A stretch of DNA of 64,000 nt from Candidatus Omnitrophota bacterium (lineage in GTDB: Bacteria; Omnitrophota; Gorgyraeia; Gygaellales; Gygaellaceae). Location of the stretch: NCBI GenBank assembly GCA_018400015.1, contig JAGYNB010000002.1:52402-116401 (forward strand), in the 5' to 3' direction. The notes beneath the pieces were generated by a model. It had not been told where the DNA came from. It ran no database searches and saw nothing but the letters and a program-made list of their open reading frames with translations. Numbering within the stretch: position 1 is the first letter of the stretch; every line of letters starts with the position of its first letter. Below are positions 17,911 to 57,793 of the stretch, one piece after another. The position numbers and the translations under genes are program-made.

Positions 17911-19605
17911 ATGCTTACCAACTTACAGATTGCTAAACAAGCCAAATTAAAACCTATTAGTGTTATTGCCCGTAATATTGGTTTAAGGAATAAAGATATT
18001 ATTCCTTATGCTAATTATGCGGCCAAGGTGGATCTAGATAGCGTAAGGCCGATATTAAGAAAACATAAAGGAAAATATATATTAGTTACCGGGATAAATC
18101 CTACACCGTTTGGTGAAGGGAAAACCGTTACTTCCATCGGTTTATCTATGGCTTTGGCAAAAAAAGGCAATCAAAAATCAATAGCCTGTATTAGACAGCC
18201 TTCCTTGGGGCCGATTTTTGGTATTAAAGGTGCTGGTACAGGAGGAGGGTTTTCGCAGGTTGTGCCTAGGGAAGACTTGAATCTGCATTTTACCGGAGAC
18301 CTTCATGCAGTGGGCGTTGCCCATAATCTATGCGCAGCTTTTCTGGATAATCATATCTATAGGGGAAACGCTTTAGATATTGATGCAAGAAATATATTTC
18401 TAAGAAGGGTAATTGATATTAATGATAGGGCCTTGCGCAACATCAAGATCTCCGTAGGATTAAAAAATAATAGTTTAGCGAGAATTAGCGGTTTTGACAT
18501 GACAACCAGTTCGGAAGTGATGTCGATCCTGTCGTTATGCAAAAGTTTTAAGGATTTAAGGAAACGTTTAGGAAGAATGACCTTGGCTTTATCACATAAG
18601 AAGACTCTGATTACCGCAGACGATCTTAAGGTGTCTGGGGCAATGGCAGTTTTGTTAAAAGATACTATAAAACCTAATCTGGTGCAGACTGTTGAGAATA
18701 CGCCGTGTTTTATGCATACCGGTCCTTTTGCAAATATATCACACGGGAATACCTCTATTTTAGCTGATAAATTGGCGCTAAACTTGAGCGAATTCGTAGT
18801 GACTGAATCAGGTTTTGGCACTGACTGCGGAGCAGAAAAGTTTTTTGATATTAAATCACGCATCTCAGGCGATATTCCGGATTGTGTCGTTTTGGTTTGT
18901 TCGGTGAGGGCAATAAAAATGCACAGTAATAAAATTGCTGTTTATCCGGGAAGGCCATTGGATAAAAGACTATATCAAGAGAATTTGGGGCTTCTAAAAA
19001 AAGGTATTTGTAATTTAAAGAGGCATATTGAAAATATTAGGCTTTTTGGTTTGTCTTGTGTTGTAGCAATCAATAGATTCGATAGCGATACAGATGAAGA
19101 AATAGATTTCTTAATAAAATCATCTTTAGAGTTTGGCGCAGATTTTGCCGCAGAAAATAGATGTTTTTCGAAGGGGTCAGAAGGTGCTTTGGAATTAGCA
19201 GGTTGTGTTATAAAAGCAAGCAATAAGAGTAAGAATTTCCGTTATTTGTATGATTTGGATATGTCAATTAGGGAAAAGATATCCATTATCGCAAAAAAAA
19301 TCTATGGTGCCAGAAGTGTTAGGTTTTCTCGCTTTACAGAAGAAAAAATAAGGTTGTTTAATCGCTTGAAATTTGATAAACTACCCGTGTGTATAGCTAA
19401 AACTCATTTATCGCTGTCGCATGATTCTTTACGTAAAGGGGCGCCGACAGATTTTGTTATACCGATAAATGATTTAAGGCTTCAAAGCGGAGCTGGTTTT
19501 TTATATGCTTTAGCCGGCAAGATAAACACGATGCCGGGATTGCCCACAAGACCCATAGGTGAATTGATGGATATCGATTCAAAAGGGAACCCAAAAGGTT
19601 TTTAG
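17911..19605 (+). CDS. fhs: formate--tetrahydrofolate ligase
   Basis: GINPTPFGEGKTVTSIGL P-loop and full-length FTHFS similarity. Confidence 0.9.
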   Translation: MLTNLQIAKQAKLKPISVIARNIGLRNKDIIPYANYAAKVDLDSVRPILRKHKGKYILVTGINPTPFGEGKTVTSIGLSMALAKKGNQKSIACIRQPSLGPIFGIKGAGTGGGFSQVVPREDLNLHFTGDLHAVGVAHNLCAAFLDNHIYRGNALDIDARNIFLRRVIDINDRALRNIKISVGLKNNSLARISGFDMTTSSEVMSILSLCKSFKDLRKRLGRMTLALSHKKTLITADDLKVSGAMAVLLKDTIKPNLVQTVENTPCFMHTGPFANISHGNTSILADKLALNLSEFVVTESGFGTDCGAEKFFDIKSRISGDIPDCVVLVCSVRAIKMHSNKIAVYPGRPLDKRLYQENLGLLKKGICNLKRHIENIRLFGLSCVVAINRFDSDTDEEIDFLIKSSLEFGADFAAENRCFSKGSEGALELAGCVIKASNKSKNFRYLYDLDMSIREKISIIAKKIYGARSVRFSRFTEEKIRLFNRLKFDKLPVCIAKTHLSLSHDSLRKGAPTDFVIPINDLRLQSGAGFLYALAGKINTMPGLPTRPIGELMDIDSKGNPKGF

Positions 19606-19606
19606 A

Positions 19607-20095
19607 ATGTATATAGAGAAAAGTATAAAAAAATATATTGAAGATTTATCTTCCCGTAAATCCACACCCGGTGGCGGTTCTGCCGCTGCCTTGACCGCGT
19701 GTTTGGGGGTTTGTTGTATGTGTATGGCCGCTCGTTTTAGTATTGGCAAAGGGAAAAACAAGGGTTTTGAAAGAAAAATAAAATCGATAATAAGCAAACT
19801 TGAAAAAATAAGGAATAGACTCAAGAGATTGGTTGATTTGGATATCGTAGCATATAATAAATACTCCCGGTCGCGCAGTAAACCTTTAGAGGTAAGACAG
19901 TTACTGTTAGAAAAAGCTGCAGCAGTACCAAAAGAGGTTTGTCAATTATGCTATGAGGCTTTGCTTTTGGCTCCAGAATTGGCAGAAAAAGGCAATTTTA
20001 ACCTTATCGCCGATGTGGAAGTCGGTGTTGAGTTGTTGGAGGCCGCTTTTAAATCTGCACTTATAAACGTAAGAATAAATAATGAAACTGCTTGA
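19607..20095 (+). CDS. fchA: cyclodeaminase/cyclohydrolase-family protein (methenyl-THF cyclohydrolase FchA-like)
   Basis: FTCD_C-like TPGGGSAAALTA motif; lies between fhs and folD. Confidence 0.7.
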   Translation: MYIEKSIKKYIEDLSSRKSTPGGGSAAALTACLGVCCMCMAARFSIGKGKNKGFERKIKSIISKLEKIRNRLKRLVDLDIVAYNKYSRSRSKPLEVRQLLLEKAAAVPKEVCQLCYEALLLAPELAEKGNFNLIADVEVGVELLEAAFKSALINVRINNETA

Positions 20096-20918
20096 AGGTA
20101 AGACTATAGCTGAAGAGATTAAAGCATCCTTAAAAAAGGATATCAATAATTTTAATCAGCAGCCTGTTTTAGCCAGCGTAAGATTGGGAGATAATTCTTC
20201 TGTGGAAAGCTATGTAAGAGCCCAGCAAAAATGCGCTCAGGAATTAGGGATTGATTATAAGTTAAAATCTCTGTCTACTCAGACTACACAAGAACAGTTA
20301 ATAGAATCTATCATTGAGTTTAATAGAAACAAAAATATAAACGGTATTATTATACAATTGCCTTTGCCGGAACATATCGATGTAAGAGGTATTTATTTAG
20401 CCGTTTCGCCGGGAAAAGATGTGGAGTCTATGCATCCTGAGAATTTAGGAAAGCTTTTTTTCCCGCAAGAGACAATCGCTCCCTGTACGGCAACCGCAGT
20501 AATGGAATTATTAAAATCTATTAATTTTAAGCTTTACGGGAAAGAGGTTGTTGTAGTTGGCCACAGTATGATCTTAGGGAAGCCTTTGTCGATAATGCTG
20601 TTAAATAATTATGCTACAACTACCGTTTGTCATATTGCAACATATAAGGCAGAGCATTTAATAGAGCACATAAAACAGGCTGATGTTTTAGTCGTTGCCG
20701 TGGGGAAAGCAAATTTTATAAAACAGGATTGGGTAAAAAAAGATGCGGTAGTTATTGATGTAGGGATAAATAGTCTAAATGGTAAAATAACCGGAGACGT
20801 GGATTTCGAAAGTGTCAGCAAGAAAGCGAGTTTTATCACTCCTGTTCCAGGAGGAGTAGGACCTTTGACTTCGGCGATATTAATGCGTAATTTAGTTAGA
20901 TTAGCGAAAAGAAAATGA
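20082..20918 (+). CDS. folD: bifunctional methylene-THF dehydrogenase/methenyl-THF cyclohydrolase
   Basis: FolD family, C-terminal PVPGGVGPLT. Confidence 0.9.
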   Translation: MKLLEGKTIAEEIKASLKKDINNFNQQPVLASVRLGDNSSVESYVRAQQKCAQELGIDYKLKSLSTQTTQEQLIESIIEFNRNKNINGIIIQLPLPEHIDVRGIYLAVSPGKDVESMHPENLGKLFFPQETIAPCTATAVMELLKSINFKLYGKEVVVVGHSMILGKPLSIMLLNNYATTTVCHIATYKAEHLIEHIKQADVLVVAVGKANFIKQDWVKKDAVVIDVGINSLNGKITGDVDFESVSKKASFITPVPGGVGPLTSAILMRNLVRLAKRK

Positions 20919-21574
20919 TAGTTACAAAACAAAAAAGTTTTCAAGATATAATGGAAGCGCTAAAAAATAAAACCAATATATTTATTATTGGTTGTGGGGA
21001 ATGTGCTACGACTTGTAAAACTGGTGGAGAAGATGAGGTTAAACTTCTCTGTGCAGAGTTATCTAAAAACAACAAGAACATAACCGGTTTTGTTATTCCT
21101 AAAGCTCCTTGTGTTGTCAGCCAGACAAAAAGAGACTTGTCAAAGTTTCGCGCGGAGTTGGAAAGATCAGACTGCATTTTAGTTATGGCATGTGGTTTGG
21201 GTGTTCAGGCTGTTATACAAAGCAAGCGTTTTAACTCAAAAGTTGTCAGCGGTTGCGATACGTTGTTTGCCGGTTCGATGACTTCATTGGGTGAGTTCTT
21301 TGAATTTTGTTCTTCGTGCGGAGAGTGTTTATTAAATATTACCGGTGGTCTTTGTCCCGTAACGCGGTGTCCAAAATCATTATTAAACGGCCCCTGCGGC
21401 GGTGCAAAAGACGGAAAATGTGAAGTAGATAGAACCAAGGATTGCGTATGGATATTGATTTATGAGCGTCTTAAAGAGTTGGGAGAACTTGATAATATCA
21501 AGTCCATAGTCAAGGCAAAAAATCATCGTAAGAATTTACGACCGGGAGTAAGGTCTTTAAAAAAAGAAAATTAA
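20915..21574 (+). CDS. metV: methylene-THF reductase C-terminal-domain protein (MetV-like, Cys-rich)
   Basis: Several CxxC pairs (IGCGECATTC, CSSCGEC, CPVTRCP); sits immediately 5' of metF as in acetogens. Confidence 0.65.
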   Translation: MIVTKQKSFQDIMEALKNKTNIFIIGCGECATTCKTGGEDEVKLLCAELSKNNKNITGFVIPKAPCVVSQTKRDLSKFRAELERSDCILVMACGLGVQAVIQSKRFNSKVVSGCDTLFAGSMTSLGEFFEFCSSCGECLLNITGGLCPVTRCPKSLLNGPCGGAKDGKCEVDRTKDCVWILIYERLKELGELDNIKSIVKAKNHRKNLRPGVRSLKKEN

Positions 21575-21576
21575 TT

Positions 21577-22446
21577 ATGAGTAAATTAGAAGCAGCTTTT
21601 AAAAACAATAAATTTGCAATTACAAGTGAAATCGGTCCGCCCAAGGGTGTTTCTTTTGAACAGATTTTAAAGGAAAATATTTCTTTAAGAGAAAGAGTGG
21701 ATGCGATTAATGTTACTGATTTGCAGAGTTCTGTTATGCGTTTGGGTTCATTGGCATTTTCTAAGATTTTATTGGATAATGGCATAGAACCGGTTTTTCA
21801 GCTTACCTGTAGAGATAGAAATAGGCTTGCTTTGCAGTCAGATCTTCTGAGCGCGGCAGTTTTAGGCATTGAAAACGTTCTCTTATTGACCGGAGATCAC
21901 CCTGTTTTGGGTGACCATCCAGAGGCAAAACCTGTATATGATTTAGACAGCGTACAACTTTTAGATTGTGCGAAAGGCCTTATAAATGGAGTTGATCTTT
22001 GCGGTAATAAACTTACCGGTAGTCCCAAATTATTTTTAGGCGCAGTTGTCAACCCGGGTGTAGAGACAATAGACCTGGAATTATTAAAGATGGAAAAAAA
22101 GGTAAAAGCAGGGGCGCAGTTTTTTCAGACTCAGGCAGTTTATGATTTATCCAGTTTTGAAAGGTTTATGAAAAAAGCAATTACTTTTGGTGTTCCGATA
22201 ATGGCAGGTATAGTACTTTTGAAATCTGCCAATATGGCCAGATACTTGAACGATAATGTTGCCGGTATAAATGTACCGGATGGATTGATTAAACGCATGC
22301 AAGATTCAAAGGATAAAGTCAAAACGTCAATTGGAATTGCTTCAAGCTTGATAAAGGAGCTGAAGGGCAATTGCCAGGGCGTACATATTATGCCTATCGG
22401 TTGGGATAAACACGTAGTAGCAGTTTTAGATCAGGCCGGTTTATAA
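21577..22446 (+). CDS. metF: 5,10-methylenetetrahydrofolate reductase
   Basis: MTHFR TIM-barrel similarity (LTCRDRNR, FFQTQAVYD motifs). Confidence 0.8.
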   Translation: MSKLEAAFKNNKFAITSEIGPPKGVSFEQILKENISLRERVDAINVTDLQSSVMRLGSLAFSKILLDNGIEPVFQLTCRDRNRLALQSDLLSAAVLGIENVLLLTGDHPVLGDHPEAKPVYDLDSVQLLDCAKGLINGVDLCGNKLTGSPKLFLGAVVNPGVETIDLELLKMEKKVKAGAQFFQTQAVYDLSSFERFMKKAITFGVPIMAGIVLLKSANMARYLNDNVAGINVPDGLIKRMQDSKDKVKTSIGIASSLIKELKGNCQGVHIMPIGWDKHVVAVLDQAGL

Positions 22447-22448
22447 TT

Positions 22449-23321
22449 ATGAATATCTTAATTATTGGAAGTTCTGCTGCAGGTATTGAGGCTGCAGGTA
22501 TGATTGTTTCCGCAGATAAATCTCACAATGTTACCATAGCAAGCGAGGATTCGGTTTTGCCCTATTATCGGTTTAAACTCGCGGATTTTCTTTTTAGTAA
22601 GGCTTGTGAGAACGGGTTTTATTTTAAGGATCAAACTTTCTTTGATAAGAACAAGATAAAATTATTATTAGGTAAGAAAGCAATAAGCTTGGATACGAGA
22701 CGTAAAAGAGTCAAATTAGATGATAATGGCTATCTGGATTTTGACAGGCTTTTGGTTGCCACAGGAGCCAATTGCGTATTGCCGGATATTAAAGGCATAA
22801 ATAAAAAGAATGTTTATGGATTAAGGAGTTTTTCCGACGTGGAAGAGATAAAAAAGAACTTGCCGGTATCTGATACAATATTTTTGGTAGGCAATGAAGC
22901 ATATTTACAGGATATGGCTTCAAATTTAAGCTCTCAGGGAAAAGAAGTTTTCTTGATTACTCAAAATAATGAACTTTTGAATAATATTAAGCAAAGCGAT
23001 AATTTAAGGTTTGTCCTTGATGATGAAATATCTGAAATAATCGGAGAATCTCAGGTTCAGGCAGTTAAGCTTAAAAGTGGTAAAGTCTTTGCCTGTTCTT
23101 TATTGATATATAATGGTAATTTTAGTCCGAACATATCATTATTGAAAGGCTCGCCGGTTGATTTATCCGATAATGGGGTAATTGTAGATGAAAATATGCG
23201 TACTAATTTAGATTTTATTTTTGCCGCTGGAGACGTGGTTGCAAATGAGACAATATCAAATCGTACTTGGGAAAATGCGCTCAAACAGGGCAGGAAAGCT
23301 GGCTTGGCAATAGTTTTATAG
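22449..23321 (+). CDS. truncated pyridine-nucleotide-disulfide oxidoreductase-family flavoprotein (LpdA/Nox N-terminal-like)
   Basis: Rossmann N-terminus IIGSSAAG, LVATGANCVLPDIKG and AAGDVV motifs; no dimerisation domain; GxGxxG motifs degenerate. Confidence 0.6.
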   Translation: MNILIIGSSAAGIEAAGMIVSADKSHNVTIASEDSVLPYYRFKLADFLFSKACENGFYFKDQTFFDKNKIKLLLGKKAISLDTRRKRVKLDDNGYLDFDRLLVATGANCVLPDIKGINKKNVYGLRSFSDVEEIKKNLPVSDTIFLVGNEAYLQDMASNLSSQGKEVFLITQNNELLNNIKQSDNLRFVLDDEISEIIGESQVQAVKLKSGKVFACSLLIYNGNFSPNISLLKGSPVDLSDNGVIVDENMRTNLDFIFAAGDVVANETISNRTWENALKQGRKAGLAIVL

Positions 23322-23370: not shown

Positions 23371-25419
23371 ATGACAAATAAATTTTCTTTAGAAAAATCG
23401 TTATCAATAGTAGAAAATAATACCAAAAGATTTTTTCAAGAATATATAATTGGTAATTCCAATATAAGATTTTCTTTTGATGATATTGAAAATGCTTTTC
23501 CTTTGTTTTTGTGTTTTTTTGGCAATAGGATTATCAGTAAGAAACAATTAAGCTTGGCTCTCGATAAGATATCTTGCATGCAGAATAAGACGGTGAAAAA
23601 TACGAAAACATTAAAATTGAGTGAATATGTTAGAAGGCTTGGTTTGATTGCTTTATTTTATGAAGAGATTCGTATATATTGTCAAATTATATTAAAACAT
23701 ATAGAATTAGAAAAAGCAATTTATAGTGATGAACGAATCAGGAACCTCGGCATAGGTTTATTAGATAATTCCTTAAGCGGCTTTATTATAGTGCCAAAGA
23801 AGACAAAAGATAAAAGTTTAGCGGATAACATAATAAGACGAAATCTGTTTTATAATGATAATATTTACAGAACCGTTCAGTGCTTAGTCAGGATTAGTTT
23901 GATGTTTGGTTGTAAAAATAAAATAAACCGGCAGTCTGTAATTAATTACTGCGCGCAGAACATACCGGCTGCAACTGTTTTGTTTGGTGATGCAAAACCC
24001 GAATATATTGCGCAAGCATTGGGTGGATTGAATTTTTCTTTAGCGGTTATTGCAAATAAAAACTTAGCAAGCGTTAAATATATTAAAGCAAAAGATGGTT
24101 TTGATAATGTTGTATTTTTTAAGAACAATGATGAAATTATCGATAAGGCAATCGAAACAAGAAATATTAGGATTAATCCTGATTTAAGCCGTTTTCCTGT
24201 AGGCTTTTCAGATACTTTTCAAGGGCAAATAATTAAAGATAAGGATCTATTGATTGATTTTCCTGTTGGATCAACCTGTGAATTGTTGGTAGATAAACCA
24301 TCTTCTTTTGTACATGACGGGAAGATTGAATTAATTGGGCATGAGTTAGATAAAATAGTTTACAATGATAAAAACAACAGGTTTTTTATATTGTTAGAAG
24401 TGGCGTTTAAAAATGAAACTAGTCGATTTAATGCTGTTCTAGAAAGGCAAATACACAGGTTTATAAATTATATAGATGGTGTAAGCCATCGGGGGCAGAA
24501 GGATTTTTTTAGCTTATCAATTAGCAAAGACGCATTCAGAAAAGGTTTGAGATTGAAAGACATTGCTTTTTTTATTTATGCAATGTTGCATAAAGAGTAT
24601 CATAGTATCGTTAGTAAGGTCCAGATAAAAATAGTTACAGACAAAAAAGAATTTGAAAAACAACTGAAAAAAACTAAAGTCATATACAGCAGTCGTTTAT
24701 TGAAAAGCTTTAAGTTAACAGATACATATGTCAAAGAATTTTATTCGTGTTCGATATGTAGCAGTTTTGTTTTAAATCATGCCTGCATTATTACTCCTGA
24801 ACATCCCGGTCTTTGCGGTTCTTATTCATTTGATGATGCAAGGATTGCTTTTAGGATTGATCCTTCCGGCGCTAGTCGTCCTATAAAAAAAGGCAAAATT
24901 ATTAGCCGCAGGCTTGGGCAATGGCAGGGGATAAACGAATTTGTCGCTAAGACAAGCAAAGAGAAAATTAAGAATATTAATCTTTATTCTATAATGCAAT
25001 CTCCACATACTTGTTCTGCGTGTTTTGAGTGTATAGTTTTGGTATTGCCGGAAGTCAACGCAGTTATGGCAGTAAGCAGAGATTATAATGGTAATACTCC
25101 TATGGGGCTGGGATTTACAGAATTGGCAGAGTTGTTTGAGTATGACAAACAGTCTCCCGGGATGATCTGTTCTAGCCGGATTTTCTTATTGAGTAAAAAA
25201 TTCATTGCTGCAGAGGGGGGTTTGGATAGGGTTGTTTGGATGAATAGCAGCTTAAAGCAATTTCTCCTAAAACACAATGGTTTTTATTTTAAAAATGATC
25301 AACTGAAGAACAGTTTAAGGAAAATTGCAGATGAGCATAACTGTATAACCTTAAAGGGGCTAGGAGAATTCATAAGTAGGGTAAAGCATCCTTGTCTGGG
25401 TATGAAGAATATTATCTAA
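23371..25419 (+). CDS. acsB: acetyl-CoA synthase (CO-methylating ACS, AcsB/CdhC family), full length with N-terminal CODH-interaction domain
   Basis: FYSCSICSSFVLNHACIITPEHPGLCGS reproduces the C-x2-C-x8-C-x9-C A-cluster [4Fe-4S] motif; ERQIHRFINY, VHDGKIELIG and LLSKKFIAAEGGLDRVVWM match conserved ACS blocks. Confidence 0.8.
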   Translation: MTNKFSLEKSLSIVENNTKRFFQEYIIGNSNIRFSFDDIENAFPLFLCFFGNRIISKKQLSLALDKISCMQNKTVKNTKTLKLSEYVRRLGLIALFYEEIRIYCQIILKHIELEKAIYSDERIRNLGIGLLDNSLSGFIIVPKKTKDKSLADNIIRRNLFYNDNIYRTVQCLVRISLMFGCKNKINRQSVINYCAQNIPAATVLFGDAKPEYIAQALGGLNFSLAVIANKNLASVKYIKAKDGFDNVVFFKNNDEIIDKAIETRNIRINPDLSRFPVGFSDTFQGQIIKDKDLLIDFPVGSTCELLVDKPSSFVHDGKIELIGHELDKIVYNDKNNRFFILLEVAFKNETSRFNAVLERQIHRFINYIDGVSHRGQKDFFSLSISKDAFRKGLRLKDIAFFIYAMLHKEYHSIVSKVQIKIVTDKKEFEKQLKKTKVIYSSRLLKSFKLTDTYVKEFYSCSICSSFVLNHACIITPEHPGLCGSYSFDDARIAFRIDPSGASRPIKKGKIISRRLGQWQGINEFVAKTSKEKIKNINLYSIMQSPHTCSACFECIVLVLPEVNAVMAVSRDYNGNTPMGLGFTELAELFEYDKQSPGMICSSRIFLLSKKFIAAEGGLDRVVWMNSSLKQFLLKHNGFYFKNDQLKNSLRKIADEHNCITLKGLGEFISRVKHPCLGMKNII

Positions 25420-32301: not shown

Positions 32302-33513
32302 ATGAGAAAAAAAGTTGTTATTTTCTTTGTTTTTATATTTCTTGCTGTTTTTTCCTTTGCCCAAGAAGTAGAGGAAATCCGTATTGTTACCTATTATCCA
32401 GCGCCATACGGAAGTTATACCGAGCTTGCGGCAAGCAGGATGAAGATTGGTCCTACTTTTTCCCAAAGCGGCACAAGCGTTGGTAATGGTAATTTGATTG
32501 TGGAAAATAATGTCGCAATCGGAACTGCTACTCCAATATCTGGTGTAGCAGGTTCAGATAAGATATTAACTATTGCCGGAACCAACCCTACAATAAGATT
32601 TAATGATTTAGATGTAGGTGAAAACGATATGGAAATTCACGTGCAAAACGGGGAAATGGGTTTTTATAATCTGAGCACACTTATTATGATGTTAAAAAAC
32701 AATAATCTTGGAATTGGAACTTCTAACCCAACAGAAAGACTTCATGTTGCAGGTAATATTTTAACAACCGGTGATATTGATATTCGTGGGTCAGATATTA
32801 ATTATGGTGCGAATTCAGAGCTTCGTTTATTTGCTAATTCACCTTCTGGAACCAATCGCCGTCTTTATATCTGTGGTTATGATAGCAGTTCATCATCTGT
32901 TAAGTGCGCAAATATGTGGGTGAATGGTTCTGGGGAATTTCACCTTAATGGAAGCACTAATGATGCTTTTAATATAAATGCTCAAGGGGGTCCGCTGCTT
33001 CTTTATTCGGGAACTGGAAGTCAAATGATTTTTCATTCTACGAATTATTATCAATGGAGAAATGGCAATACCAATGCTGAGATTATGCGTTTAGACGCTT
33101 CATCTGGCAACCTCGGCGTTGGCGATACCACTCCTACAGAAGCTAAAATAGTTGCCAGAGGCGGTACGGTTGCAGGTGAAGGCGCTTATAATAATTTATC
33201 ATCTCATTCTAGTTTAAAAGACAGGTTTAAGGATATCAATGTATTAGATAAGATAAGCTCGCTTAGGATAAAAGAATGGCAGTATAAGGATGATACCGCA
33301 GAAAGGATCAATGATTACGCGAGACATCTGTATCCTTTTGCCGATGATTTTTATAAAATGTTTAGTATTGGAAAAGATGACCGCTCCATAAACGCTTTGG
33401 ATGTTGCCGGTGTTGCCTTAAAAGGTGTGCAAGAGTTAAATAAAAAAGTTGAAGATTTAGTTGTAGAAAATAAACTGTTAAAAGAGAAAATAAGTCAGTT
33501 GGAATCAAATTAA
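32302..33513 (+). CDS. secreted tail-fibre-domain protein with C-terminal endosialidase-chaperone (peptidase S74-like) domain and coiled coil
   Basis: Signal peptide; repeats NLGIGTSNPTERLHVAGNI and NLGVGDTTPTEAKIV; C-terminal SLKDRFKDIN...WQYKDD...SINALDVAGVALKGVQEL resembles the S74 intramolecular-chaperone domain. Confidence 0.6.
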   Translation: MRKKVVIFFVFIFLAVFSFAQEVEEIRIVTYYPAPYGSYTELAASRMKIGPTFSQSGTSVGNGNLIVENNVAIGTATPISGVAGSDKILTIAGTNPTIRFNDLDVGENDMEIHVQNGEMGFYNLSTLIMMLKNNNLGIGTSNPTERLHVAGNILTTGDIDIRGSDINYGANSELRLFANSPSGTNRRLYICGYDSSSSSVKCANMWVNGSGEFHLNGSTNDAFNINAQGGPLLLYSGTGSQMIFHSTNYYQWRNGNTNAEIMRLDASSGNLGVGDTTPTEAKIVARGGTVAGEGAYNNLSSHSSLKDRFKDINVLDKISSLRIKEWQYKDDTAERINDYARHLYPFADDFYKMFSIGKDDRSINALDVAGVALKGVQELNKKVEDLVVENKLLKEKISQLESN

Positions 33514-52408: not shown

Positions 52409-52960
52409 ATGAAAGAGATTAGAATACATGCCCGTGCCGGTCAGGGCGCAATAACGACCGCGGTAATTTTAGGACAGGCTTATTTTCAGGAAGGGAAGTA
52501 TGTCTATGCCTTTCCGCATTTTGGGGCAGCCAGAATGGGTGCGCCTATGAATGCCTTTGTCCGCTTGGATGATAACCCTGTAAGGCTGAGAAGCCAGATA
52601 TATTATCCTAATTACCTTTTGGTTATAGATGATACTCTTTTGAGGGGTTTTAATTGTTTTGCCGGGTTTCAAGACCGGGGCATTGCTGTAATTAATACAA
52701 ACCAGGAGTCTTTGGCTACTGGTGTAAAAAAGACACAGAAAGCCTACTTTGTTCCAGGTAATGACATTGCTTTAAAGACTATAGGTAAGCCTTTAGGTAA
52801 TACTGCCATTTTGGGTGCTTTTGTTGCCGCAACCGATGAGCTAAAGTTGGATTCTTTATTAATTAGTATAGAAAAGCGTTTTCCTGAGAAGATCCGTAAG
52901 GTAAATATAGAAGCGGCAAAACAGGGTTACGAATTTGTAAAAAAAATAAGGAATAAATGA
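52409..52960 (+). CDS. porG: pyruvate/2-oxoacid:ferredoxin oxidoreductase gamma subunit
   Basis: HARAGQGAITTAVILGQA motif. Confidence 0.85.
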   Translation: MKEIRIHARAGQGAITTAVILGQAYFQEGKYVYAFPHFGAARMGAPMNAFVRLDDNPVRLRSQIYYPNYLLVIDDTLLRGFNCFAGFQDRGIAVINTNQESLATGVKKTQKAYFVPGNDIALKTIGKPLGNTAILGAFVAATDELKLDSLLISIEKRFPEKIRKVNIEAAKQGYEFVKKIRNK

Positions 52961-52961
52961 T

Positions 52962-53216
52962 ATGTTCGGTCCTTTAATAGCAAAACCAGGTTCAAGTCAG
53001 CATAATAAAACAGGTTCATGGCGAATAAAGTCTAGGCCAAAATTCTTAAAAAAAGAGTGTATTGGTTGTAAGCTGTGTATTTTAGTTTGTCCTGAAAGCT
53101 GCATTACGGGAAGCGATAAGGATACCATAAATTGCGATCTTGATTACTGTAAAGGTTGTGGTTTATGTGTAAAGATCTGTCCTAAAAAAGATATCATAAT
53201 GGAAGAGGAAAGATGA
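52962..53216 (+). CDS. porD: pyruvate:ferredoxin oxidoreductase delta subunit (2x[4Fe-4S])
   Basis: CIGCKLCILVCPE and CKGCGLCVKICP ferredoxin motifs. Confidence 0.85.
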   Translation: MFGPLIAKPGSSQHNKTGSWRIKSRPKFLKKECIGCKLCILVCPESCITGSDKDTINCDLDYCKGCGLCVKICPKKDIIMEEER

Positions 53217-54388
53217 GACAGTTTCTTGAAGGCTCACAGGCTATTGCTAAAATCGTATCTCTTTGTCGGCCGGGTGTGATATCGGCATATCCTATAACTC
53301 CCCAGACGCATATAGTTGAAGGCTTGGCACAGTATGTTGCCGATGGAAAGTTAAAAAGTGAATTTGTTAACGTAGAAAGTGAACATTCAGCAGCTTCTGT
53401 GGTATTAGGCGGTTCTGCAGCAGGATCAAGAGTATTTACGGCAACCAGCTCTCAAGGGCTGTTTTTGATGGCTGAGGTTGTATTTAATATTGCCGGTATG
53501 AGGCTTCCTGTTGTAATGGTTGTGGCAAACCGCGCGATATCAGCCCCTATAAATATTTGGAACGACCATCAGGACAGCATTTCTTTAAGAGATTCAGGTT
53601 GGATTCAGTTGTATGCTGAAAGCATACAAGAGGCAGTTGATGCTACAATTCTTGCATATAGAATTGCTGAGAATAAAGATATTCTTTTACCGGTTATGGT
53701 GTGTATGGACGGTTTTATACTTACTCATGGGTTAGAACCTGTTGATATGCCGCAGGAACAAGATGTTAAAAAGTTCCTTCCAGACTACAAGGCAATTCTG
53801 AAATTAGATGTTGATAAGCCTATAAGCATGGGTTTATTAGCCGATCCGGATTATTATCTGGAGACTAGGTATGCGATTCAAAAAACGCACGAAGATGTTT
53901 TAGGGCTTATTCCTAAATTATCCGAAGAATTCGAGAATGTATTTACAAGAAAATGTGTTGGTTTAGTAGAAGAGTACCATACTAAAGATGCGGATAAAAT
54001 TATTGTTGCTATGGGTTCTGTATGCGGAACGATAAAAGAAGCAGTTGATATAATGCGTTCTAAGAAAAAAAAGGTAGGGTTGTTAAAAATAAGTACCTAC
54101 AGACCATTTCCTTATAAGGAAATATGCCGGGTTCTTTCAAAGGCAAAATCAGTTGCCGTATTGGATAAGGCAGTTTCTTTAGGGGCATACGGTCCGTTAT
54201 ATGCAGATATAACCAGTGCTTTTTCAGGAAAATCTAAATCACCTAAAATTAGCGGTTTTGTAGCAGGTTTAGGTGGAAGAGATATTATGCTGGACACGAT
54301 TTATGCAATCTTTAAGAAGCTTAATGGTACGGCAAAACCTTGCGAATATGTCGATGTAAAACAGGAATTATTAAGAGATCATTTATGA
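53213..54388 (+). CDS. porA: pyruvate:ferredoxin oxidoreductase alpha subunit
   Basis: PorA family similarity, gene order G-D-A-B. Confidence 0.85.
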   Translation: MRQFLEGSQAIAKIVSLCRPGVISAYPITPQTHIVEGLAQYVADGKLKSEFVNVESEHSAASVVLGGSAAGSRVFTATSSQGLFLMAEVVFNIAGMRLPVVMVVANRAISAPINIWNDHQDSISLRDSGWIQLYAESIQEAVDATILAYRIAENKDILLPVMVCMDGFILTHGLEPVDMPQEQDVKKFLPDYKAILKLDVDKPISMGLLADPDYYLETRYAIQKTHEDVLGLIPKLSEEFENVFTRKCVGLVEEYHTKDADKIIVAMGSVCGTIKEAVDIMRSKKKKVGLLKISTYRPFPYKEICRVLSKAKSVAVLDKAVSLGAYGPLYADITSAFSGKSKSPKISGFVAGLGGRDIMLDTIYAIFKKLNGTAKPCEYVDVKQELLRDHL

Positions 54389-55278
54389 GTAAAGATACCG
54401 TTAATAACGAAAAACCTTATTTGTTAAAACCAGGGCATACTGCTTGTGCTGGCTGCGGGCAATCTTTGGCTGCGCGTCTTGTGATTGATGCAGCAGGTAA
54501 AAACACTATTGTGGTTAATAATACAGGATGTCTCGAGGTGTTTAGTACCAAATGTCCAGAATCAAGCTGGGATGTTCCTTGGGTGCATTCGCTTTTTGAG
54601 AATGCCGCTGCCGTAGCCTCAGGAGTAGAAGCCTCATTGAAGCATTTTAATAAAAAAGATAAAATAAATGTTATAGCTCAAGCTGGAGACGGCGGTACCG
54701 CGGATATCGGTTTACAGGCTCTTTCAGGCATGCTTGAAAGAGGTCATGATATATTATATGTTTGTTATGATAACGAAGCTTATATGAATACGGGAATTCA
54801 GCGTAGCGGTCTTACACCTTTTAGCTCCAACACAACGACAACTCCGCCAGGAAGCGAATCTAAAGGTAATTGGAGGCCGAAAAAACCAATTCATGAGATA
54901 TGTAATGCCCATGGGATACCTTATGTTGCAACTGCTACGATTGCCTATCCGCAGGATATACAGCAAAAGGTGAAAAAGGCTCTTTCTATTAAGGGGCCAA
55001 AATACATGCAGATACATGTACCCTGTCCTTTGGGGTGGAGATTTGATTCATCTTTGTCTTTAGAGGTTGCCAAGCTTGCTGTAGAAACCGGGCTTTATCC
55101 GATAATAGAATACGAACAGGGAGCCCTTTCCAGGGTCAGAAAAATTATCCCTAAGCCAGTAGTAGAATATTTGAAAACACAAGGAAGATTTAAACACCTT
55201 TTAAAAGACGAACAGGCAATATCTGGGGTTCAGAGGATTGCCGATATCAATATAGAAACATACGGTCTTAAAAGTTAG
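54385..55278 (+). CDS. porB: pyruvate:ferredoxin oxidoreductase beta subunit (TPP-binding)
   Basis: CAGCG.. and GDGGTADIG TPP/Fe-S motifs; start taken at MSKDTV, overlapping the porA stop. Confidence 0.85.
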   Translation: MSKDTVNNEKPYLLKPGHTACAGCGQSLAARLVIDAAGKNTIVVNNTGCLEVFSTKCPESSWDVPWVHSLFENAAAVASGVEASLKHFNKKDKINVIAQAGDGGTADIGLQALSGMLERGHDILYVCYDNEAYMNTGIQRSGLTPFSSNTTTTPPGSESKGNWRPKKPIHEICNAHGIPYVATATIAYPQDIQQKVKKALSIKGPKYMQIHVPCPLGWRFDSSLSLEVAKLAVETGLYPIIEYEQGALSRVRKIIPKPVVEYLKTQGRFKHLLKDEQAISGVQRIADINIETYGLKS

Positions 55279-55288
55279 TAAAAAGGAG

Positions 55289-55474
55289 ATGGCAATGAAA
55301 GTAACAGTTGATGAATCTTTATGCGTTGGTTGCGGTCTGTGTGAGACTAATTGTCCTGAAGTTTTCAAGATGGATAATGGCGTTGCCAAGGTGTTAAAAT
55401 CTGACGGTTCAGGATGCGATGTAAAATCTATGGCCGAGCAGTGTCCTGTAACAGCGATAAAGGTGGAAGAATAA
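55289..55474 (+). CDS. single-cluster [4Fe-4S]/[3Fe-4S] ferredoxin
   Basis: CVGCGLCETNCP ... CP motif in 61 aa. Confidence 0.8.
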   Translation: MAMKVTVDESLCVGCGLCETNCPEVFKMDNGVAKVLKSDGSGCDVKSMAEQCPVTAIKVEE

Positions 55475-55487
55475 TAAAATCACTCTT

Positions 55488-56336
55488 GTGAAAGAGGCAA
55501 GATTTTATAAGGCGTTAGATGGGGATAAGGTTCAGTGTGAGCTTTGTCCCCATTTTTGTTTAATAGAGCCTGATAAAATCGGGATCTGTAAGGTAAGAAA
55601 AAATATTAAAGGCAGGCTCTACTCGCTTAATTATGCAAAAATAAGTTCCCTCGCGTTAGACCCAATAGAAAAAAAACCTCTTTACCATTTTCATTCAGGA
55701 GAATATATTCTTTCAGTTGGCACATCCGGGTGTAATTTGAAATGTTTGTTTTGCCAGAACTGGAGCATATCACAAGAAACACCAGATTTAAAGCAAATTT
55801 CAAGCGAATTCTTGGTTCAGGAGGCCAAATCGAATGATTCTTTTGGTATCGCTTATACTTATAATGAGCCTTTTATCTGGTATGAGTTTGTGTTTGATAC
55901 GGCCAGACTCGCTAAGGAAAACGGTTTAAGAAATGTATTGGTTACAAATGGTTTTATAAATCCAAAGCCGCTTAAAGATATGTTGCAATTTATCGATGCG
56001 ATGAATATAGATTTAAAATCAATCGGTAATAATTTTTATAAAGATTATTGTAAAGCAAGCCTAAAACCAGTATTAGAAACGATAAAAACATCTTCTCGAT
56101 ATTGTCATGTGGAATTGACCAATCTTGTGATATCCGGTCTTAACGATAAAGAGGAGAATTTTATTCAGTTGAGAGATTGGATTTATGATAATCTTGGACC
56201 GGATGCGATTCTTCATATCTCTAGGTATTTTCCATGTTATAAGATGAATATAATACCCACCCCAATAGATACGCTTAAAAAAGCACAAGAGATAATTGGA
56301 AAAAAATTAAGATATGTATATTTGGGAAATGTTTAG
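55488..56336 (+). CDS. AmmeMemoRadiSam-system-type radical SAM enzyme (PFL-activase-like)
   Basis: N-terminal CELCPHFC and SGCNLKCLFCQNW radical-SAM CxxxCxxC cluster. Confidence 0.75.
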   Translation: MKEARFYKALDGDKVQCELCPHFCLIEPDKIGICKVRKNIKGRLYSLNYAKISSLALDPIEKKPLYHFHSGEYILSVGTSGCNLKCLFCQNWSISQETPDLKQISSEFLVQEAKSNDSFGIAYTYNEPFIWYEFVFDTARLAKENGLRNVLVTNGFINPKPLKDMLQFIDAMNIDLKSIGNNFYKDYCKASLKPVLETIKTSSRYCHVELTNLVISGLNDKEENFIQLRDWIYDNLGPDAILHISRYFPCYKMNIIPTPIDTLKKAQEIIGKKLRYVYLGNV

Positions 56337-57793
56337 TCTGTAAGGGCAGAAATATTGCTTTTTAGGTTAGCTTTTTCTCTTACCGAATTTAAAAGCTTCA
56401 AGTTGACGTTATTTTCTTCTTTTTCAAGTTCTGATTTTAGAAATTCCTCTTTTTTTTCAGCAAATTTATTTATATCCACCGGATAAAGTTTATCAAGCGA
56501 GATTATATAAAATTTGTTTTCAATCCTTAACGGAGGGCTTATTTCTTTATCTTTTAGTATAAAAGCGATATCGGAAAGCTCGTTGCTGTATCCTAATTTT
56601 GGGAACATCTTTGTTTGTCTGGTGAAGGTGTCAGTTGTGTAAGGTTTCTTTTTTAAAGATTTTGCCAATTGCTCGAACGTAATATTTGGGTTTTCTTTTT
56701 GTTTCTTTATCATTGCATCGTATAGGGAATTTATTTTCTCTAAAGCCAGTTTTGCTTTTTGTTCATTTATGATTTTGGTTATGAGCATATCTTTTGCTTT
56801 CATAAAGTCAATAGTATAGTCGGATTGTTTTTCTAAAACTTTTAGCATATAGTAACCGTTATTTATTTCCATAGGATTAGAGATTTTTCCAACCTCCATA
56901 AATGTAGAAATCGCAATTATTTGGTTTTCTGGATTATCGTTTAAAAGTAATTGATTATCAGCGATTTTTTCTCCCGTGGTTTTAAATACAAGGGAGTTAG
57001 ATTTGGCAAATTCTTCTAAATCAGTATCTTCATCGATGTTTTTTGCCAAGGAATCAAGTTTTTGTTTGAGGATTTCTTTTTCTTCTTTTGTCAATTGCTG
57101 CTTGTATGGTGAGCCTATGTAGGCAGCATTTATCATAACTTTATTTTGGAAATCGTTGATATTTTTTTCGTAGTAGTCTTTTAATTCCTCAATAGAGGGA
57201 TTTTTTATTTGGAAATCATCGCAATCTACGAATATGTAATCAATAGATACCTTTTCATATTGGTCTTTGTAACGAGAAAGAAGATCTTGGTCGGTAATTT
57301 TAATTTCAGATGTATTTTGGGAATAGAGCTTTTCAATGGTAAGCGCATCGCGAATTTCCTCTTCGAATTGTCGTTTTGATATATTAAATGTTGTTTGCAA
57401 TATTTGTTGGTAAAGGTATTTATCAAATACACCGTTTTTTTTGAAAAACGGCATTGAGGTTATTGTGTTTATTACTTCTTTATCGCTTACTTTTATTCTT
57501 CTTTTTCTCGCCTCGTTTAAAAGCAATAATCTGTCCCAGGACAGTTTATTTATGGTAAAAGGGTTTGGTTTTTGATTTATGCCTTTTAATGCGAATATAT
57601 GTTCTACCGCAAGTTTGCTTTTTAGGAATTTCTCTATAGATATTTTTTTGCCGAACATTTCTCCGGCATGTTCGCTTGACGATCTATTCTGAAGAGCGAA
57701 ATTCGCACCCCAGAATATAAAGGAAGGAACGATTAAAGCGGTTAAGACCCAAAATATTCCTTTTATGTGTTTTTTGCTTAATTTGCCGAACAT
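56333..57793 (-). CDS. PpiD/SurA-like periplasmic chaperone (N-terminal TM anchor)
   Basis: MFGKLSKKHIKGIFWVLTALIV anchor typical of PpiD and a SurA_N-like domain; no clear parvulin motif. Confidence 0.6.
   Translation of the reverse strand: MFGKLSKKHIKGIFWVLTALIVPSFIFWGANFALQNRSSSEHAGEMFGKKISIEKFLKSKLAVEHIFALKGINQKPNPFTINKLSWDRLLLLNEARKRRIKVSDKEVINTITSMPFFKKNGVFDKYLYQQILQTTFNISKRQFEEEIRDALTIEKLYSQNTSEIKITDQDLLSRYKDQYEKVSIDYIFVDCDDFQIKNPSIEELKDYYEKNINDFQNKVMINAAYIGSPYKQQLTKEEKEILKQKLDSLAKNIDEDTDLEEFAKSNSLVFKTTGEKIADNQLLLNDNPENQIIAISTFMEVGKISNPMEINNGYYMLKVLEKQSDYTIDFMKAKDMLITKIINEQKAKLALEKINSLYDAMIKKQKENPNITFEQLAKSLKKKPYTTDTFTRQTKMFPKLGYSNELSDIAFILKDKEISPPLRIENKFYIISLDKLYPVDINKFAEKKEEFLKSELEKEENNVNLKLLNSVREKANLKSNISALTD

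What the first reader, a model, noticed from the sequence alone, without database searches (positions are those of the whole stretch)
22449..23321. Truncated, motif-degenerate LpdA-like flavoprotein wedged between metF and acsB
The ORF is about 290 aa with a pyridine-nucleotide-disulfide oxidoreductase fold (LVATGANCVLPDIKG, AAGDVV). It lacks the C-terminal dimerisation domain, and both dinucleotide motifs are non-canonical (GSSAAG, VGNEAY). Acetogen WL clusters carry a full-length lpdA at this position. The electron donor of MetFV-type MTHFRs is unresolved in several lineages, so this mini-flavoprotein is a candidate, possibly novel, redox partner.
Basis: inference. Interest (0 to 1): 0.5.

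Follow-up and report, generated by a model that had tools for sequence, protein, structure and literature searches.

The report
Truncated CODH-linked flavoprotein remnant (short FNOR)
The small flavoprotein gene between metF and acsB is real and conserved, but it is a cut-down descendant of the flavoprotein (FNOR) that normally works with carbon monoxide dehydrogenase, kept in Omnitrophota bacteria that lost that enzyme; it has lost its NAD(P)H site, and its present partner is unknown.

Summary
The ORF (22449-23321, +, 290 aa) is real and intact. It is under purifying selection (dN/dS 0.13 against its Ca. Gygaella obscura ortholog) and folds confidently (pLDDT 96) as a two-domain flavoprotein. 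The three FAD motifs are present; GSSAAG is the normal form in this clade. The NAD(P)H motif is reduced to one Gly, part of the NAD domain is deleted, and the C-terminal domain is missing. That missing domain is the Rubredoxin_C type, not Pyr_redox_dim.

It is not LpdA-like. Its nearest relatives are ferredoxin/rubredoxin reductases, CoADR and, above all, FNOR, the flavoprotein of cooS-cooF-FNOR carbon monoxide dehydrogenase modules.

Related Omnitrophota contigs carry metF-(cooC)-cooS-cooF-FNOR(422-449 aa)-acsB-TPR-polA. All 28 loci with the short form lack cooS/cooF and read metF-short-acsB-TPR-polA. So adjacency to metF is best explained by deletion of the CODH genes.

At least 50 sequence clusters of 265-305 aa share this architecture. 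The partner is unresolved: some lineages keep the short form after metF without acsB, while one contig fuses it to AcsB.

Verdict: a new variant of a known kind, moderately interesting. The MetFV-partner idea is possible but has no specific support.

The parts
22449..23321 (+). Short FNOR-derived flavoprotein ORF (290 aa): FAD domain plus a vestigial NAD domain, with no C-terminal domain
22467..22484 (+). N-terminal FAD (ADP-binding) motif GSSAAG = GxSxxG; the acidic residue E34 follows at the end of beta-2
   Evidence: Position. G7, G12 and E34 are conserved across short and full-length relatives, and GNSAAG is the norm in full-length FNORs.
22752..22796 (+). 'ATG' motif (LVATGANCVLPDIKG) linking the FAD and NAD domains
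   Evidence: Position. D99, L101, G106 and G116 are invariant or nearly so in the family.
22887..22904 (+). Degenerate NAD(P)H dinucleotide motif VGNEAY (full-length relatives have GGGLIG or GAGIAG); a deletion of about 10-20 residues follows after beta-2
   Evidence: Motif table. PF00070 does not match this region in the ORF but matches aa 146-223 in P0037 and the L094/L095/L131 FNORs. Only 5 of 41 short members hit PF00070 at E<=1e-4.
23223..23240 (+). GD motif (AAGDVV) of the FAD domain. It is retained in the window subgroup but replaced by ACG[SAT] in most other short members
21577..22446 (+). metF (289 aa), ending 2 nt upstream of the ORF
   Evidence: PF02219 MTHFR, E 1.4e-38. Found directly upstream of the short ORF in 24 of the 25 loci with upstream sequence.
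20915..21574 (+). metV (219 aa, NGPCGG motif), present only in the window subgroup of loci
   Evidence: PF12225, E 2e-34. Seen in the window, L007 and L093 only.
23371..25419 (+). acsB-like gene (682 aa), 49 nt downstream. The [4Fe4S] cysteines are kept, but the Ni-binding Cys-Gly-Cys reads C-S-A-C
   Evidence: PF03598 and PF19436. Alignment to 6ytt. Motif comparison.
17911..20918 (+). fhs, fchA and folD: the methyl-branch genes that open the same co-directional gene string
   Evidence: Pfam FTHFS, FTCD_C and THF_DHG_CYH. Gene spacing of 1, -14 and -4 nt.

Best explanation
The ORF is a truncated descendant of FNOR. FNOR is the FAD/NAD(P)-dependent oxidoreductase that is encoded with CooS (Ni-CODH) and the Fe-S protein CooF.

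History. In the Omnitrophota ancestor the operon read metF-(cooC)-cooS-cooF-FNOR-acsB. In lineages that lost the CODH genes, FNOR came to lie directly after metF. It also lost its Rubredoxin_C-type C-terminal domain, its NAD(P)H dinucleotide motif and part of the NAD domain.

What remains. The product is a compact, stably folded two-domain protein. In this window's subgroup it keeps every FAD-binding motif, and it is maintained by purifying selection.

How it most likely works (inferred). It binds FAD but cannot be reduced by NAD(P)H in the canonical way. It probably acts as a pyridine-nucleotide-independent flavin subunit that exchanges electrons with an Fe-S partner. The protein face exposed by loss of the C-terminal domain would serve as a docking surface for a product of the same operon. 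In this lineage MetV/MetF is marginally the more likely partner and AcsB the second candidate.

Shown: gene integrity, fold, motif states, family breadth, positional homology to FNOR, and absence of cooS/cooF from every short-form locus.

Inferred: FAD occupancy, loss of NAD(P)H use, the direction of evolution, and the partner.
For: Gene and selection:
- The ORF is intact and tightly packed in the operon.
- dN/dS is 0.13 against Ca. Gygaella, similar to FolD, FchA and PolA.

Family breadth:
- An exhaustive profile search finds about 50 clusters (at 50% identity) of 265-305 aa before full-length proteins dominate the list.

Fold:
- The AF2 model has pLDDT 96 and pTM 0.92.

Motifs:
- The FAD motifs GxSxxG, E34, ATG and GD are present.
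- The NAD motif is reduced to G148, with a deletion after beta-2.
- PF00070 is absent from the NAD domain here but present in full-length relatives.

Synteny:
- L094, L095, L131 and L128 carry (metF)-cooC/cooS-cooF-FNOR(422-449 aa; Pyr_redox_2 + Pyr_redox + Rubredoxin_C)-acsB-TPR-polA.
- The 28 distinct short-form loci carry metF-short-acsB-TPR-polA or a variant of it. None has a cooS, cooF or cooC hit.
- Full-length relatives in many phyla sit next to a CooF-like gene.

Literature:
- FNOR is a recognised but biochemically uncharacterised CODH partner (PMC4703632, PMC6344411).
- Many Omnitrophota have a partial WL pathway lacking AcsA and CooS/F (PMC10066038).
[quoted passage not shown] That they belong to the same flavoprotein superfamily and do not use NADPH is from memory.
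Against: - No cofactor, activity or interaction has been measured.
- The NJ tree does not resolve which full-length clade is sister to the short forms. Monophyly of all short forms has 56% bootstrap, and deeper nodes 4-21%.
- By BLAST the closest full-length protein is P0037 (37% identity). It sits in a folD-X-metH context without cooF, slightly ahead of the L094 FNOR at 35%.
- Most short-family members outside this subgroup have lost the Asp of the GD motif. FAD binding may therefore not be universal in the family.
- The C-terminal domain lost here is the one that helps dock the Fe-S partner in solved ferredoxin-reductase complexes (from general knowledge of PdR-Pdx and BphA4-BphA3). Fe-S partnering is thus not guaranteed.
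- All loci share flanking housekeeping synteny, so the many loci are not independent observations of linkage.
Confidence: 0.6

Rival explanations
1. One reading: the short flavoprotein is a dedicated third subunit of the MetFV methylene-THF reductase. It would be a new electron-input or bifurcating flavin module, analogous in role to RnfC2 or HdrA.
For: - It lies directly after metF (-4 to +56 nt; 168 nt in L178/L179) in 24 of the 25 loci with upstream sequence.
- It is retained after metF in four or five divergent lineages whose locus has no acsB: L006, L009, L173, L175 and probably L172.
- metV occurs only in the window subgroup, which is among the few groups that keep the FAD GD motif.
- An unrelated Armatimonadota contig (L083) also has metF-metV followed by a 566-aa Pyr_redox_2 protein.
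- The physiological donor of MetFV-type enzymes is debated (PMC8760232).
Against: - Adjacency is explained by loss of cooC/cooS/cooF from metF-cooS-cooF-FNOR-acsB.
- There is no NAD(P)H site, so it cannot supply the missing NAD(P)H link.
- Most short-form loci have no metV at all.
- Tight spacing is general in this streamlined genome.
- The clostridial positional analogue LpdA was shown not to donate electrons to MTHFR (PMC8515935).
Confidence: 0.3
2. It is an accessory of the CODH-less acetyl-CoA synthase AcsB. It might deliver the activating electron to the A-cluster, or it might occupy structurally the N-terminal face where CODH used to dock.
For: - FNOR ancestrally belongs to the carbonyl-branch module cooS-cooF-FNOR-acsB.
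- acsB is directly downstream in most loci, and the two genes often overlap by 8-32 nt: L100, L102, L103, L109, L176, L178.
- One contig (L089, P0048, 1024 aa) encodes an in-frame fusion of the short flavoprotein to the N-terminus of AcsB. No alternative-frame continuation is visible.
- L090 has the order acsB-short-TPR with no gap.
- Every member examined that keeps the GD Asp, and whose context is known, lies in an acsB-containing locus.
Against: - Several lineages keep the gene although acsB is absent from the locus.
- The fusion is seen on a single metagenomic contig.
- Flavin potentials are not obviously low enough for Ni(I) formation (general knowledge).
Confidence: 0.25
3. It is a decaying relic of FNOR with no remaining function: an expressed pseudo-enzyme on its way out.
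For: - The NAD motif, the C-terminal domain and, in most family members, the GD Asp are lost.
- Its original partners CooS and CooF are gone.
Against: - dN/dS is 0.13.
- Length and domain boundaries are conserved in about 50 clusters that have diverged to about 28% identity.
- The N-terminal dinucleotide motif and many other columns are invariant.
- The truncation falls cleanly at the domain boundary, and the model has pLDDT 96.
Confidence: 0.07
4. It is a truncated LpdA, the glycine-cleavage L-protein, as found at this position in clostridial WL clusters.
For: lpdA does lie next to metVF in C. ljungdahlii and its relatives. It belongs to the same broad Pyr_redox_2 superfamily.
Against: - TIGR01350 scores 39 bits against a cutoff of 409.
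- There is no CxxxxC redox disulfide; the Cys are at 53, 109 and 216 only.
- There is no dimerisation domain and no NAD motif.
Confidence: 0.02

Closest known systems
FNOR, the FAD-NAD(P) oxidoreductase of CooS-CooF-FNOR carbon monoxide dehydrogenase gene clusters (COG1251; Geelhoed et al. 2016, PMC4703632; Inoue et al. 2019, PMC6344411)
   Same: - Same Pyr_redox_2 fold and the same FAD motifs, including GxSxxG.
- 31-35% identity to the Omnitrophota FNORs of L094, L095 and L131.
- Identical position in the operon, immediately upstream of acsB-TPR-polA and downstream of metF.
   Different: - No adjacent cooS or cooF.
- NAD(P) motif and PF00070 match lost.
- Deletion of about 10-20 residues in the NAD domain.
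- The roughly 125-aa Rubredoxin_C-type C-terminal domain is absent.
- FNOR itself has never been characterised biochemically.
NAD(P)H:ferredoxin/rubredoxin reductases and their relatives (PdR 1q1r/3lb8, TodA 3ef6, 3fg2, RdxR 2v3a, NROR 3klj, AorC 8c0z_E)
   Different: All of them bind NAD(P)H and carry a C-terminal domain that helps dock the Fe-S partner. The ORF has neither.
CoA-disulfide reductase / NADH oxidase / NADH peroxidase group
   Different: The redox-active Cys aligns with F42 of the ORF, so no Cys is present there. The dimerisation domain and the NAD motif are also absent.
Ferredoxin-dependent flavin thioredoxin reductases (FFTR) and low-Mr TrxR
   Different: The ORF has no CxxC redox disulfide in the second domain. 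It belongs to a different subfamily, and no thioredoxin context is present.
LpdA (dihydrolipoyl dehydrogenase) next to metVF in clostridial WL clusters
   Same: A Pyr_redox_2-superfamily flavoprotein gene placed after metF in a WL cluster.
   Different: It is a different subfamily. LpdA has a CxxxxC disulfide, an NAD motif and a Pyr_redox_dim domain, all of which are absent here. LpdA was shown not to serve MTHFR.

Membership tests
FNOR (CooS/CooF-associated FAD-NAD(P) oxidoreductase, COG1251) | Pyr_redox_2 fold with FAD-binding motifs (GxGxxG-type, ATG, GD) | tested here: met
   PF07992, E 7e-36. Motifs at aa 7-12, 102-116 and 259-264. Model and fold matches.
FNOR (CooS/CooF-associated FAD-NAD(P) oxidoreductase, COG1251) | NAD(P)-binding Rossmann motif in the second domain | tested here: not met
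   VGNEAY replaces GGGLIG/GAGIAG. There is no PF00070 match in the NAD domain, whereas L094/L095/L131/P0037 match at 58-66 bits.
FNOR (CooS/CooF-associated FAD-NAD(P) oxidoreductase, COG1251) | C-terminal Rubredoxin_C-type domain (total length about 390-450 aa) | tested here: not met
   The protein ends at aa 290, right after the last FAD-domain helix. There is no coding capacity in the 49-nt spacer.
FNOR (CooS/CooF-associated FAD-NAD(P) oxidoreductase, COG1251) | Encoded next to cooF and/or cooS | tested here: not met
   No cooS, cooF or cooC tblastn hit (E<=1e-6) anywhere in the 64-kb window or in any short-form locus in the database searched (L172-L179 fetched later were not included). The rest of the genome could not be searched.
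FNOR (CooS/CooF-associated FAD-NAD(P) oxidoreductase, COG1251) | Positional/evolutionary homology with FNOR of related genomes | tested here: met
   Same slot between metF and acsB-TPR-polA as the full-length FNOR in L094, L095 and L131. The phylogeny is only weakly resolved.
LpdA / dihydrolipoyl dehydrogenase (class I pyridine nucleotide-disulfide oxidoreductase) | Redox-active CxxxxC disulfide in the FAD domain | tested here: not met
   Cys occur only at 53, 109 and 216. There is no C....C and no C..C.
LpdA / dihydrolipoyl dehydrogenase (class I pyridine nucleotide-disulfide oxidoreductase) | Pyr_redox_dim C-terminal interface domain and the family-level HMM score | tested here: not met
   No PF02852 hit. 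TIGR01350 scores 39 bits against a cutoff of 408.8.
CoADR / Nox / Npx | Single redox-active Cys (about Cys42-44) on the flavin si-face | tested here: not met
   The CoADR Cys aligns with F42 of the ORF in the profile alignment to 3cgb.
Low-Mr TrxR / FFTR | CxxC redox disulfide in the second domain | tested here: not met
   No CxxC in the protein.
Accessory subunits of MetFV-type MTHFR (RnfC2, HdrABC-MvhD, NuoEFG-like) | Homology to a known MTHFR electron-input module, or demonstrated complex formation with MetFV | not testable with these tools
   No homology to RnfC, HdrA or NuoF families in Pfam/NCBIfam.
FAD-binding flavoprotein (holo-protein) | Actually carries FAD | not testable with these tools
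   The motifs are consistent with FAD binding, but most other family members lack the GD Asp. This needs purification and spectroscopy.

The most novel reading that the evidence does not exclude
The short FNOR is an obligate, pyridine-nucleotide-independent flavin subunit that defines a new enzyme architecture in Omnitrophota. One version is a MetF(V)-sFNOR methylene-THF reductase whose flavin takes electrons from ferredoxin, possibly by bifurcation. The other is a CODH-free acetyl-CoA synthase whose A-cluster is activated through the attached flavoprotein, as the natural sFNOR::AcsB fusion hints.
Probability: 0.22. Interest if true: 0.7.

Novelty: new variant of a known kind. Interest (0 to 1): 0.4.

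Why it matters
If the short FNOR is a working subunit, it would show how a redox module is repurposed after its enzyme (CODH) is lost. It would also give a concrete, testable candidate for how CODH-less, streamlined Omnitrophota feed electrons to methylene-THF reductase or activate a stand-alone acetyl-CoA synthase. Electron supply to MetFV-type MTHFR is an open point in Wood-Ljungdahl bioenergetics.

Practical value exists even if the function turns out to be modest. These genes are currently auto-annotated as 'NAD(P)H-nitrite reductase large subunit' or 'NAD(P)/FAD-dependent oxidoreductase', although they lack an NAD(P)H site. Metabolic reconstructions of Omnitrophota should neither count them as NAD(P)H-linked enzymes nor call them LpdA.

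Tried and rejected
- LpdA identity: rejected.
- Pseudogene or frameshift: rejected.
- CoADR/Nox-type thiol enzyme: rejected, since there is no active-site Cys.
- Correlation between the C-terminal CQT[SY] tail of many family members and presence of acsB: none found.
- Whether the 208-aa gene after the full-length relative in L087 is a MetV: no. It matches the T. maritima MetH activation-domain protein 1j6r.
- Whether the 180-aa gene before metF in L176 is a MetV: no.
- The gene between folD and metF in L012 and L009 is a DMT_6 membrane protein or a TPR protein, not metV.
- NJ phylogeny with 100 bootstraps: supports the window subgroup (99%) and the main short group (76%), but does not resolve the full-length sister group.
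- BLAST ranking of full-length relatives is also not decisive.
- Promoter and terminator scan of 16.9-26.6 kb: promoter-like sites are at chance level, and no terminator-like site lies between metF, the ORF and acsB. It is uninformative beyond being consistent with co-transcription.
- Technical dead ends. The 41-sequence alignment was too diverse for the metagenome pattern scan. The afdb50 fold library was unavailable.
- I decided against folding the 1024-aa fusion. Without PAE or coordinates, the pTM value would not show whether the domains dock.
Full report
**1. The observation**

The ORF at 22449-23321 (+) exists, starts with ATG and encodes 290 aa. It begins 2 nt after the metF stop. A 49-nt spacer with stops in every frame follows, and then an acsB-like gene. 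It closes a co-directional string of genes: fhs, fchA, folD, metV, metF, ORF, acsB. TPR, polA, glgA, coaE and rho follow, all identified by Pfam.

Pfam Pyr_redox_2 covers the whole protein (aa 2-281 of a 291-position profile, E 7e-36). No C-terminal domain family matches.

**2. It is a real, constrained gene and not an artefact**

An ortholog with 73% identity and 289 aa sits in the same position in Candidatus Gygaella obscura, an Omnitrophota MAG. Orthologs of 292 aa at 48-50% identity occur on other metagenomic contigs.

Nei-Gojobori dN/dS between the window and Gygaella is 0.13. That falls in the range of FolD (0.08), FchA (0.11) and PolA (0.09). dS is close to saturation, so the ratio is approximate.

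An exhaustive HMMER profile search of 1.84 billion representatives returned about 50 clusters of 265-305 aa ahead of the bulk of full-length (390-450 aa) relatives. AlphaFold2 with a 54-sequence alignment gives pLDDT 96 and pTM 0.92.

**3. What kind of flavoprotein it is**

- Sequence. The best NCBIfam partial matches are PadH, CoA-disulfide reductase, HcaD, NirB and NorW. Lipoamide dehydrogenase scores only 39 bits against a cutoff of 409.
- Solved structures. The family profile best matches CoADR 3cgb, a ferredoxin reductase annotated as putative rubredoxin reductase (3fg2), AorC 8c0z_E and NROR 3klj.
- Redox cysteines. The protein has none of those that define LpdA (CxxxxC), TrxR (CxxC) or CoADR/Nox (the Cys aligning with F42).

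'LpdA-like' is therefore correct only at superfamily level.

**4. Motif states**

The N-terminal motif GSSAAG is not degenerate. GxSxxG (mostly GNSAAG) is the norm in this clade, including full-length members whose NAD motif is intact. The acidic residue at the end of beta-2 (E34), the ATG motif and the GD motif (AAGD) are all present.

The second motif is genuinely lost. Full-length relatives have GGGLIG or GAGIAG, and the short family keeps only the first Gly (VGNEAY here). About 10-20 residues after beta-2 of the NAD domain are deleted.

PF00070, the NAD-binding Rossmann domain, matches aa 146-223 of full-length relatives at 58-66 bits. It does not match that region of the ORF, and only 5 of 41 short members reach E<=1e-4.

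The protein ends exactly at the last helix of the FAD domain. The domain that is missing is Rubredoxin_C (PF18267), not Pyr_redox_dim.

Outside the window's subgroup most short members have also replaced the GD Asp (ACG[SAT]). Many carry a C-terminal Cys tail, CQT[SY]. The window protein has neither feature.

**5. Where it comes from**

This is the key result. I scanned one genome per species and a metagenome collection, and looked up individual family members. That gave 28 distinct loci with the short form. All appear to be Omnitrophota or MAGs with the same flanking synteny.

- Common order: (fhs)-fchA-folD-(metV or a DMT_6/TPR gene)-metF-short-acsB-TPR-polA.
- Spacing: metF to short is -4 to +56 nt in most loci (168 nt in L178/L179). 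The short gene and acsB frequently overlap.

Four related contigs carry a full-length 422-449-aa homolog in the same slot. In each it is preceded by CODH genes:

- L094: metF-(GIY-YIG)-cooC-cooS-cooF-FNOR-acsB-TPR-polA.
- L095 and L131: metF-cooS-cooF-FNOR-acsB.
- L128: cooS-cooF-FNOR.

Pfam confirms these identities: CooS (Prismane/CODH, 581 bits), a CooF-like 4Fe-4S dicluster protein, a CooC-type ATPase, and a flavoprotein with Pyr_redox_2 + Pyr_redox + Rubredoxin_C.

No short-form locus in the searched set, and no part of the 64-kb window, has a cooS, cooF or cooC hit. Full-length relatives from many other phyla sit next to a CooF-like gene, some with CooS.

This gene trio is known in the literature as CooS-CooF-FNOR. 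FNOR (COG1251) is proposed to link CO oxidation or CO2 reduction to NAD(P)(H). As of 2019 it had not been characterised biochemically (PMC4703632, PMC6344411). Seymour et al. report that many Omnitrophota have a partial WL pathway lacking formate dehydrogenase, AcsA and CooS/F (PMC10066038).

The simplest history is this. The ancestral operon was metF-cooS-cooF-FNOR-acsB. Loss of the CODH genes brought FNOR next to metF, and FNOR then lost its NAD(P)H site and its C-terminal domain.

The direction of change and the exact sister group are inferred. The NJ tree supports the window subgroup (99%) and the main short group (76%). It gives only 56% for monophyly of all short forms and does not resolve deeper nodes. 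BLAST ranks a folD-linked full-length protein (P0037, 37%) marginally above the L094 FNOR (35%).

**6. What it does now**

Shown: the gene is constrained, the protein folds, the FAD motifs are kept in this subgroup, and the NAD site is gone.

Inferred: it binds FAD, cannot use NAD(P)H in the canonical way, and works with another protein of the operon. Ferredoxin-dependent flavin thioredoxin reductases are a precedent for a flavoprotein of this kind that takes its electrons from ferredoxin (superfamily membership and NADPH-independence from memory).

Two candidate partners have comparable support.

MetF/MetV:
- Four or five divergent lineages keep the short gene directly after metF although acsB is absent from the locus: L006, L009, L173, L175 and probably L172.
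- metV is present only in the window subgroup (window, L007, L093), one of the few groups that keep the GD motif.
- An unrelated Armatimonadota contig has metF-metV followed by a 566-aa Pyr_redox_2 protein.

AcsB:
- FNOR belonged to the carbonyl-branch module.
- The short gene overlaps acsB by 8-32 nt in several loci.
- L090 has the order acsB-short.
- One contig encodes an in-frame short::AcsB fusion of 1024 aa, with no sign of a simple frameshift.

Because all loci share flanking housekeeping synteny, these are not independent observations.

My probabilities:
- FNOR origin: about 0.8.
- NAD(P)H-independence: about 0.75.
- FAD binding in this subgroup: about 0.65.
- Partner is MetFV: about 0.3.
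- Partner is AcsB: about 0.25.
- Non-functional relic: under 0.1.

**7.

The statement that acetogen clusters carry lpdA at this position is correct for clostridia. However, that LpdA is a different subfamily. It was purified and shown not to donate electrons to MTHFR, and it was assigned to the glycine cleavage system (PMC8515935).

The window's MetFV has the features of a 2S-type enzyme: metV upstream of metF and an NGPCGG motif. A third, NAD(P)H-binding subunit is what that field is looking for, and this protein cannot be one. A ferredoxin- or Fe-S-linked flavin subunit remains possible but has no specific support.

**8. Novelty and interest**

The family carries only generic automatic names, such as 'NAD(P)/FAD-dependent oxidoreductase' and 'NAD(P)H-nitrite reductase large subunit'. 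My literature searches found no description of it.

It is best classed as a new variant of a known kind: a truncated FNOR without an NAD site. Interest is moderate.
- For: the origin is now explained. The family is a tidy example of a redox module surviving the loss of its enzyme. It also offers testable hypotheses about MTHFR or ACS in Omnitrophota.
- Against: nothing here directly resolves the MTHFR donor question.

Noticed in passing
window 23371-25419 (aa ~548-555 of the AcsB-like protein); L007 10930-12993: The A-cluster Ni-binding tripeptide Cys-Gly-Cys reads TCSACFEC in the window and TCSLCFEC in Ca. Gygaella. It is SSCGCFEC in other Omnitrophota AcsB and SCGCFEC in solved ACS. So the motif is CxxC instead of CGC, while the [4Fe4S] cysteines are kept. 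This AcsB also lacks a CODH_A_N Pfam match. It evolves faster than its neighbours (55% aa identity, dN/dS 0.23) and has no acsA/C/D/E beside it. It may be a functionally diverged ACS.
   Followed up: partly
L089 8001-11075 (protein P0048): A single 16.8-kb metagenomic contig encodes an in-frame fusion of the short flavoprotein to the N-terminus of AcsB (1024 aa). It sits in the usual metF-...-TPR-polA synteny. No alternative reading frame continues the flavoprotein C-terminus.
   Followed up: partly
L087 6515-12417: The closest full-length relative by BLAST (P0037, 421 aa, intact NAD motif) lies in fchA-folD-P0037-(208-aa homolog of the T. maritima MetH activation-domain protein 1j6r)-metH. 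No metF, cooF or acsB is nearby. This may be a reductase for reactivating the cobalamin of MetH.
   Followed up: partly
short-family proteins P0031, P0032, P0040, P0043, P0053-P0055, P0058, P0060, P0062, P0071-P0073, P0079; L013, L100: Many short-family members, though not the window protein, end in a conserved C-terminal Cys tail (…GExCQT[SY]). They also carry conserved Cys before the vestigial NAD-motif Gly (VCxxG) and in place of the residue before the GD Gly (ACG). The tail does not correlate with presence of acsB.
   Followed up: partly
window 20915-21574; L009, L012, L013, L089, L094, L176: metV is present only in the window subgroup (window, L007, L093). Other loci have a DMT_6 membrane gene, a TPR gene, a lipoprotein-like gene or nothing between folD and metF. 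Most of these Omnitrophota MetF (61-69% identical to the window's) therefore have no adjacent MetV.
   Followed up: partly
L001/L007 6880-7159 versus window 17911-19605: The Ca. Gygaella locus lacks fhs between rnhB and fchA, leaving only a gap of about 280 nt. The window and several other loci have fhs there.
   Followed up: no
L083 3623-7171: An Armatimonadota contig has metF-metV followed by a 566-aa Pyr_redox_2 protein with a canonical GGVAAG motif. This is an independent case of a group-3 flavoprotein after metFV.
   Followed up: no
proteins P0008, P0009, P0065, P0069, P0074, P0078: This is a separate, well-supported clade (100% bootstrap) of 341-447-aa relatives. Where I inspected the sequence (P0008, P0009), the NAD motif is degenerate (ESDTQEG, QSDQISG), and in P0009 the FAD motif as well (GNSPDV). 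Their genomic context was not examined.
   Followed up: no
window 52409-55474: A 2-oxoacid:ferredoxin oxidoreductase cluster. The alpha (POR_N/PFOR_II) and beta (TPP_enzyme_C) subunits have Pfam hits. The presumed gamma gene was not scanned. The delta subunit and a following 72-aa ferredoxin-like ORF are identified only by their Cys motifs. These two are the only ORFs in the window with CxxCxxCxxxCP motifs.
   Followed up: no
window 1-64000: Nearly all long ORFs are on the + strand. The few minus-strand ORFs of 150 aa or more mostly lie inside plus-strand genes, and only 56333-57793 has its own Pfam match. GC skew is uniformly positive (0.11-0.27), and genes are packed with few-nt gaps or overlaps. 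This fits a streamlined genome and means tight spacing alone is weak evidence of functional coupling.
   Followed up: no
window 32302-33513: A 403-aa ORF after rho has only a weak Peptidase_S74 (endosialidase chaperone) match. A homologous 451-aa gene occupies the same place in Ca. Gygaella.
   Followed up: no
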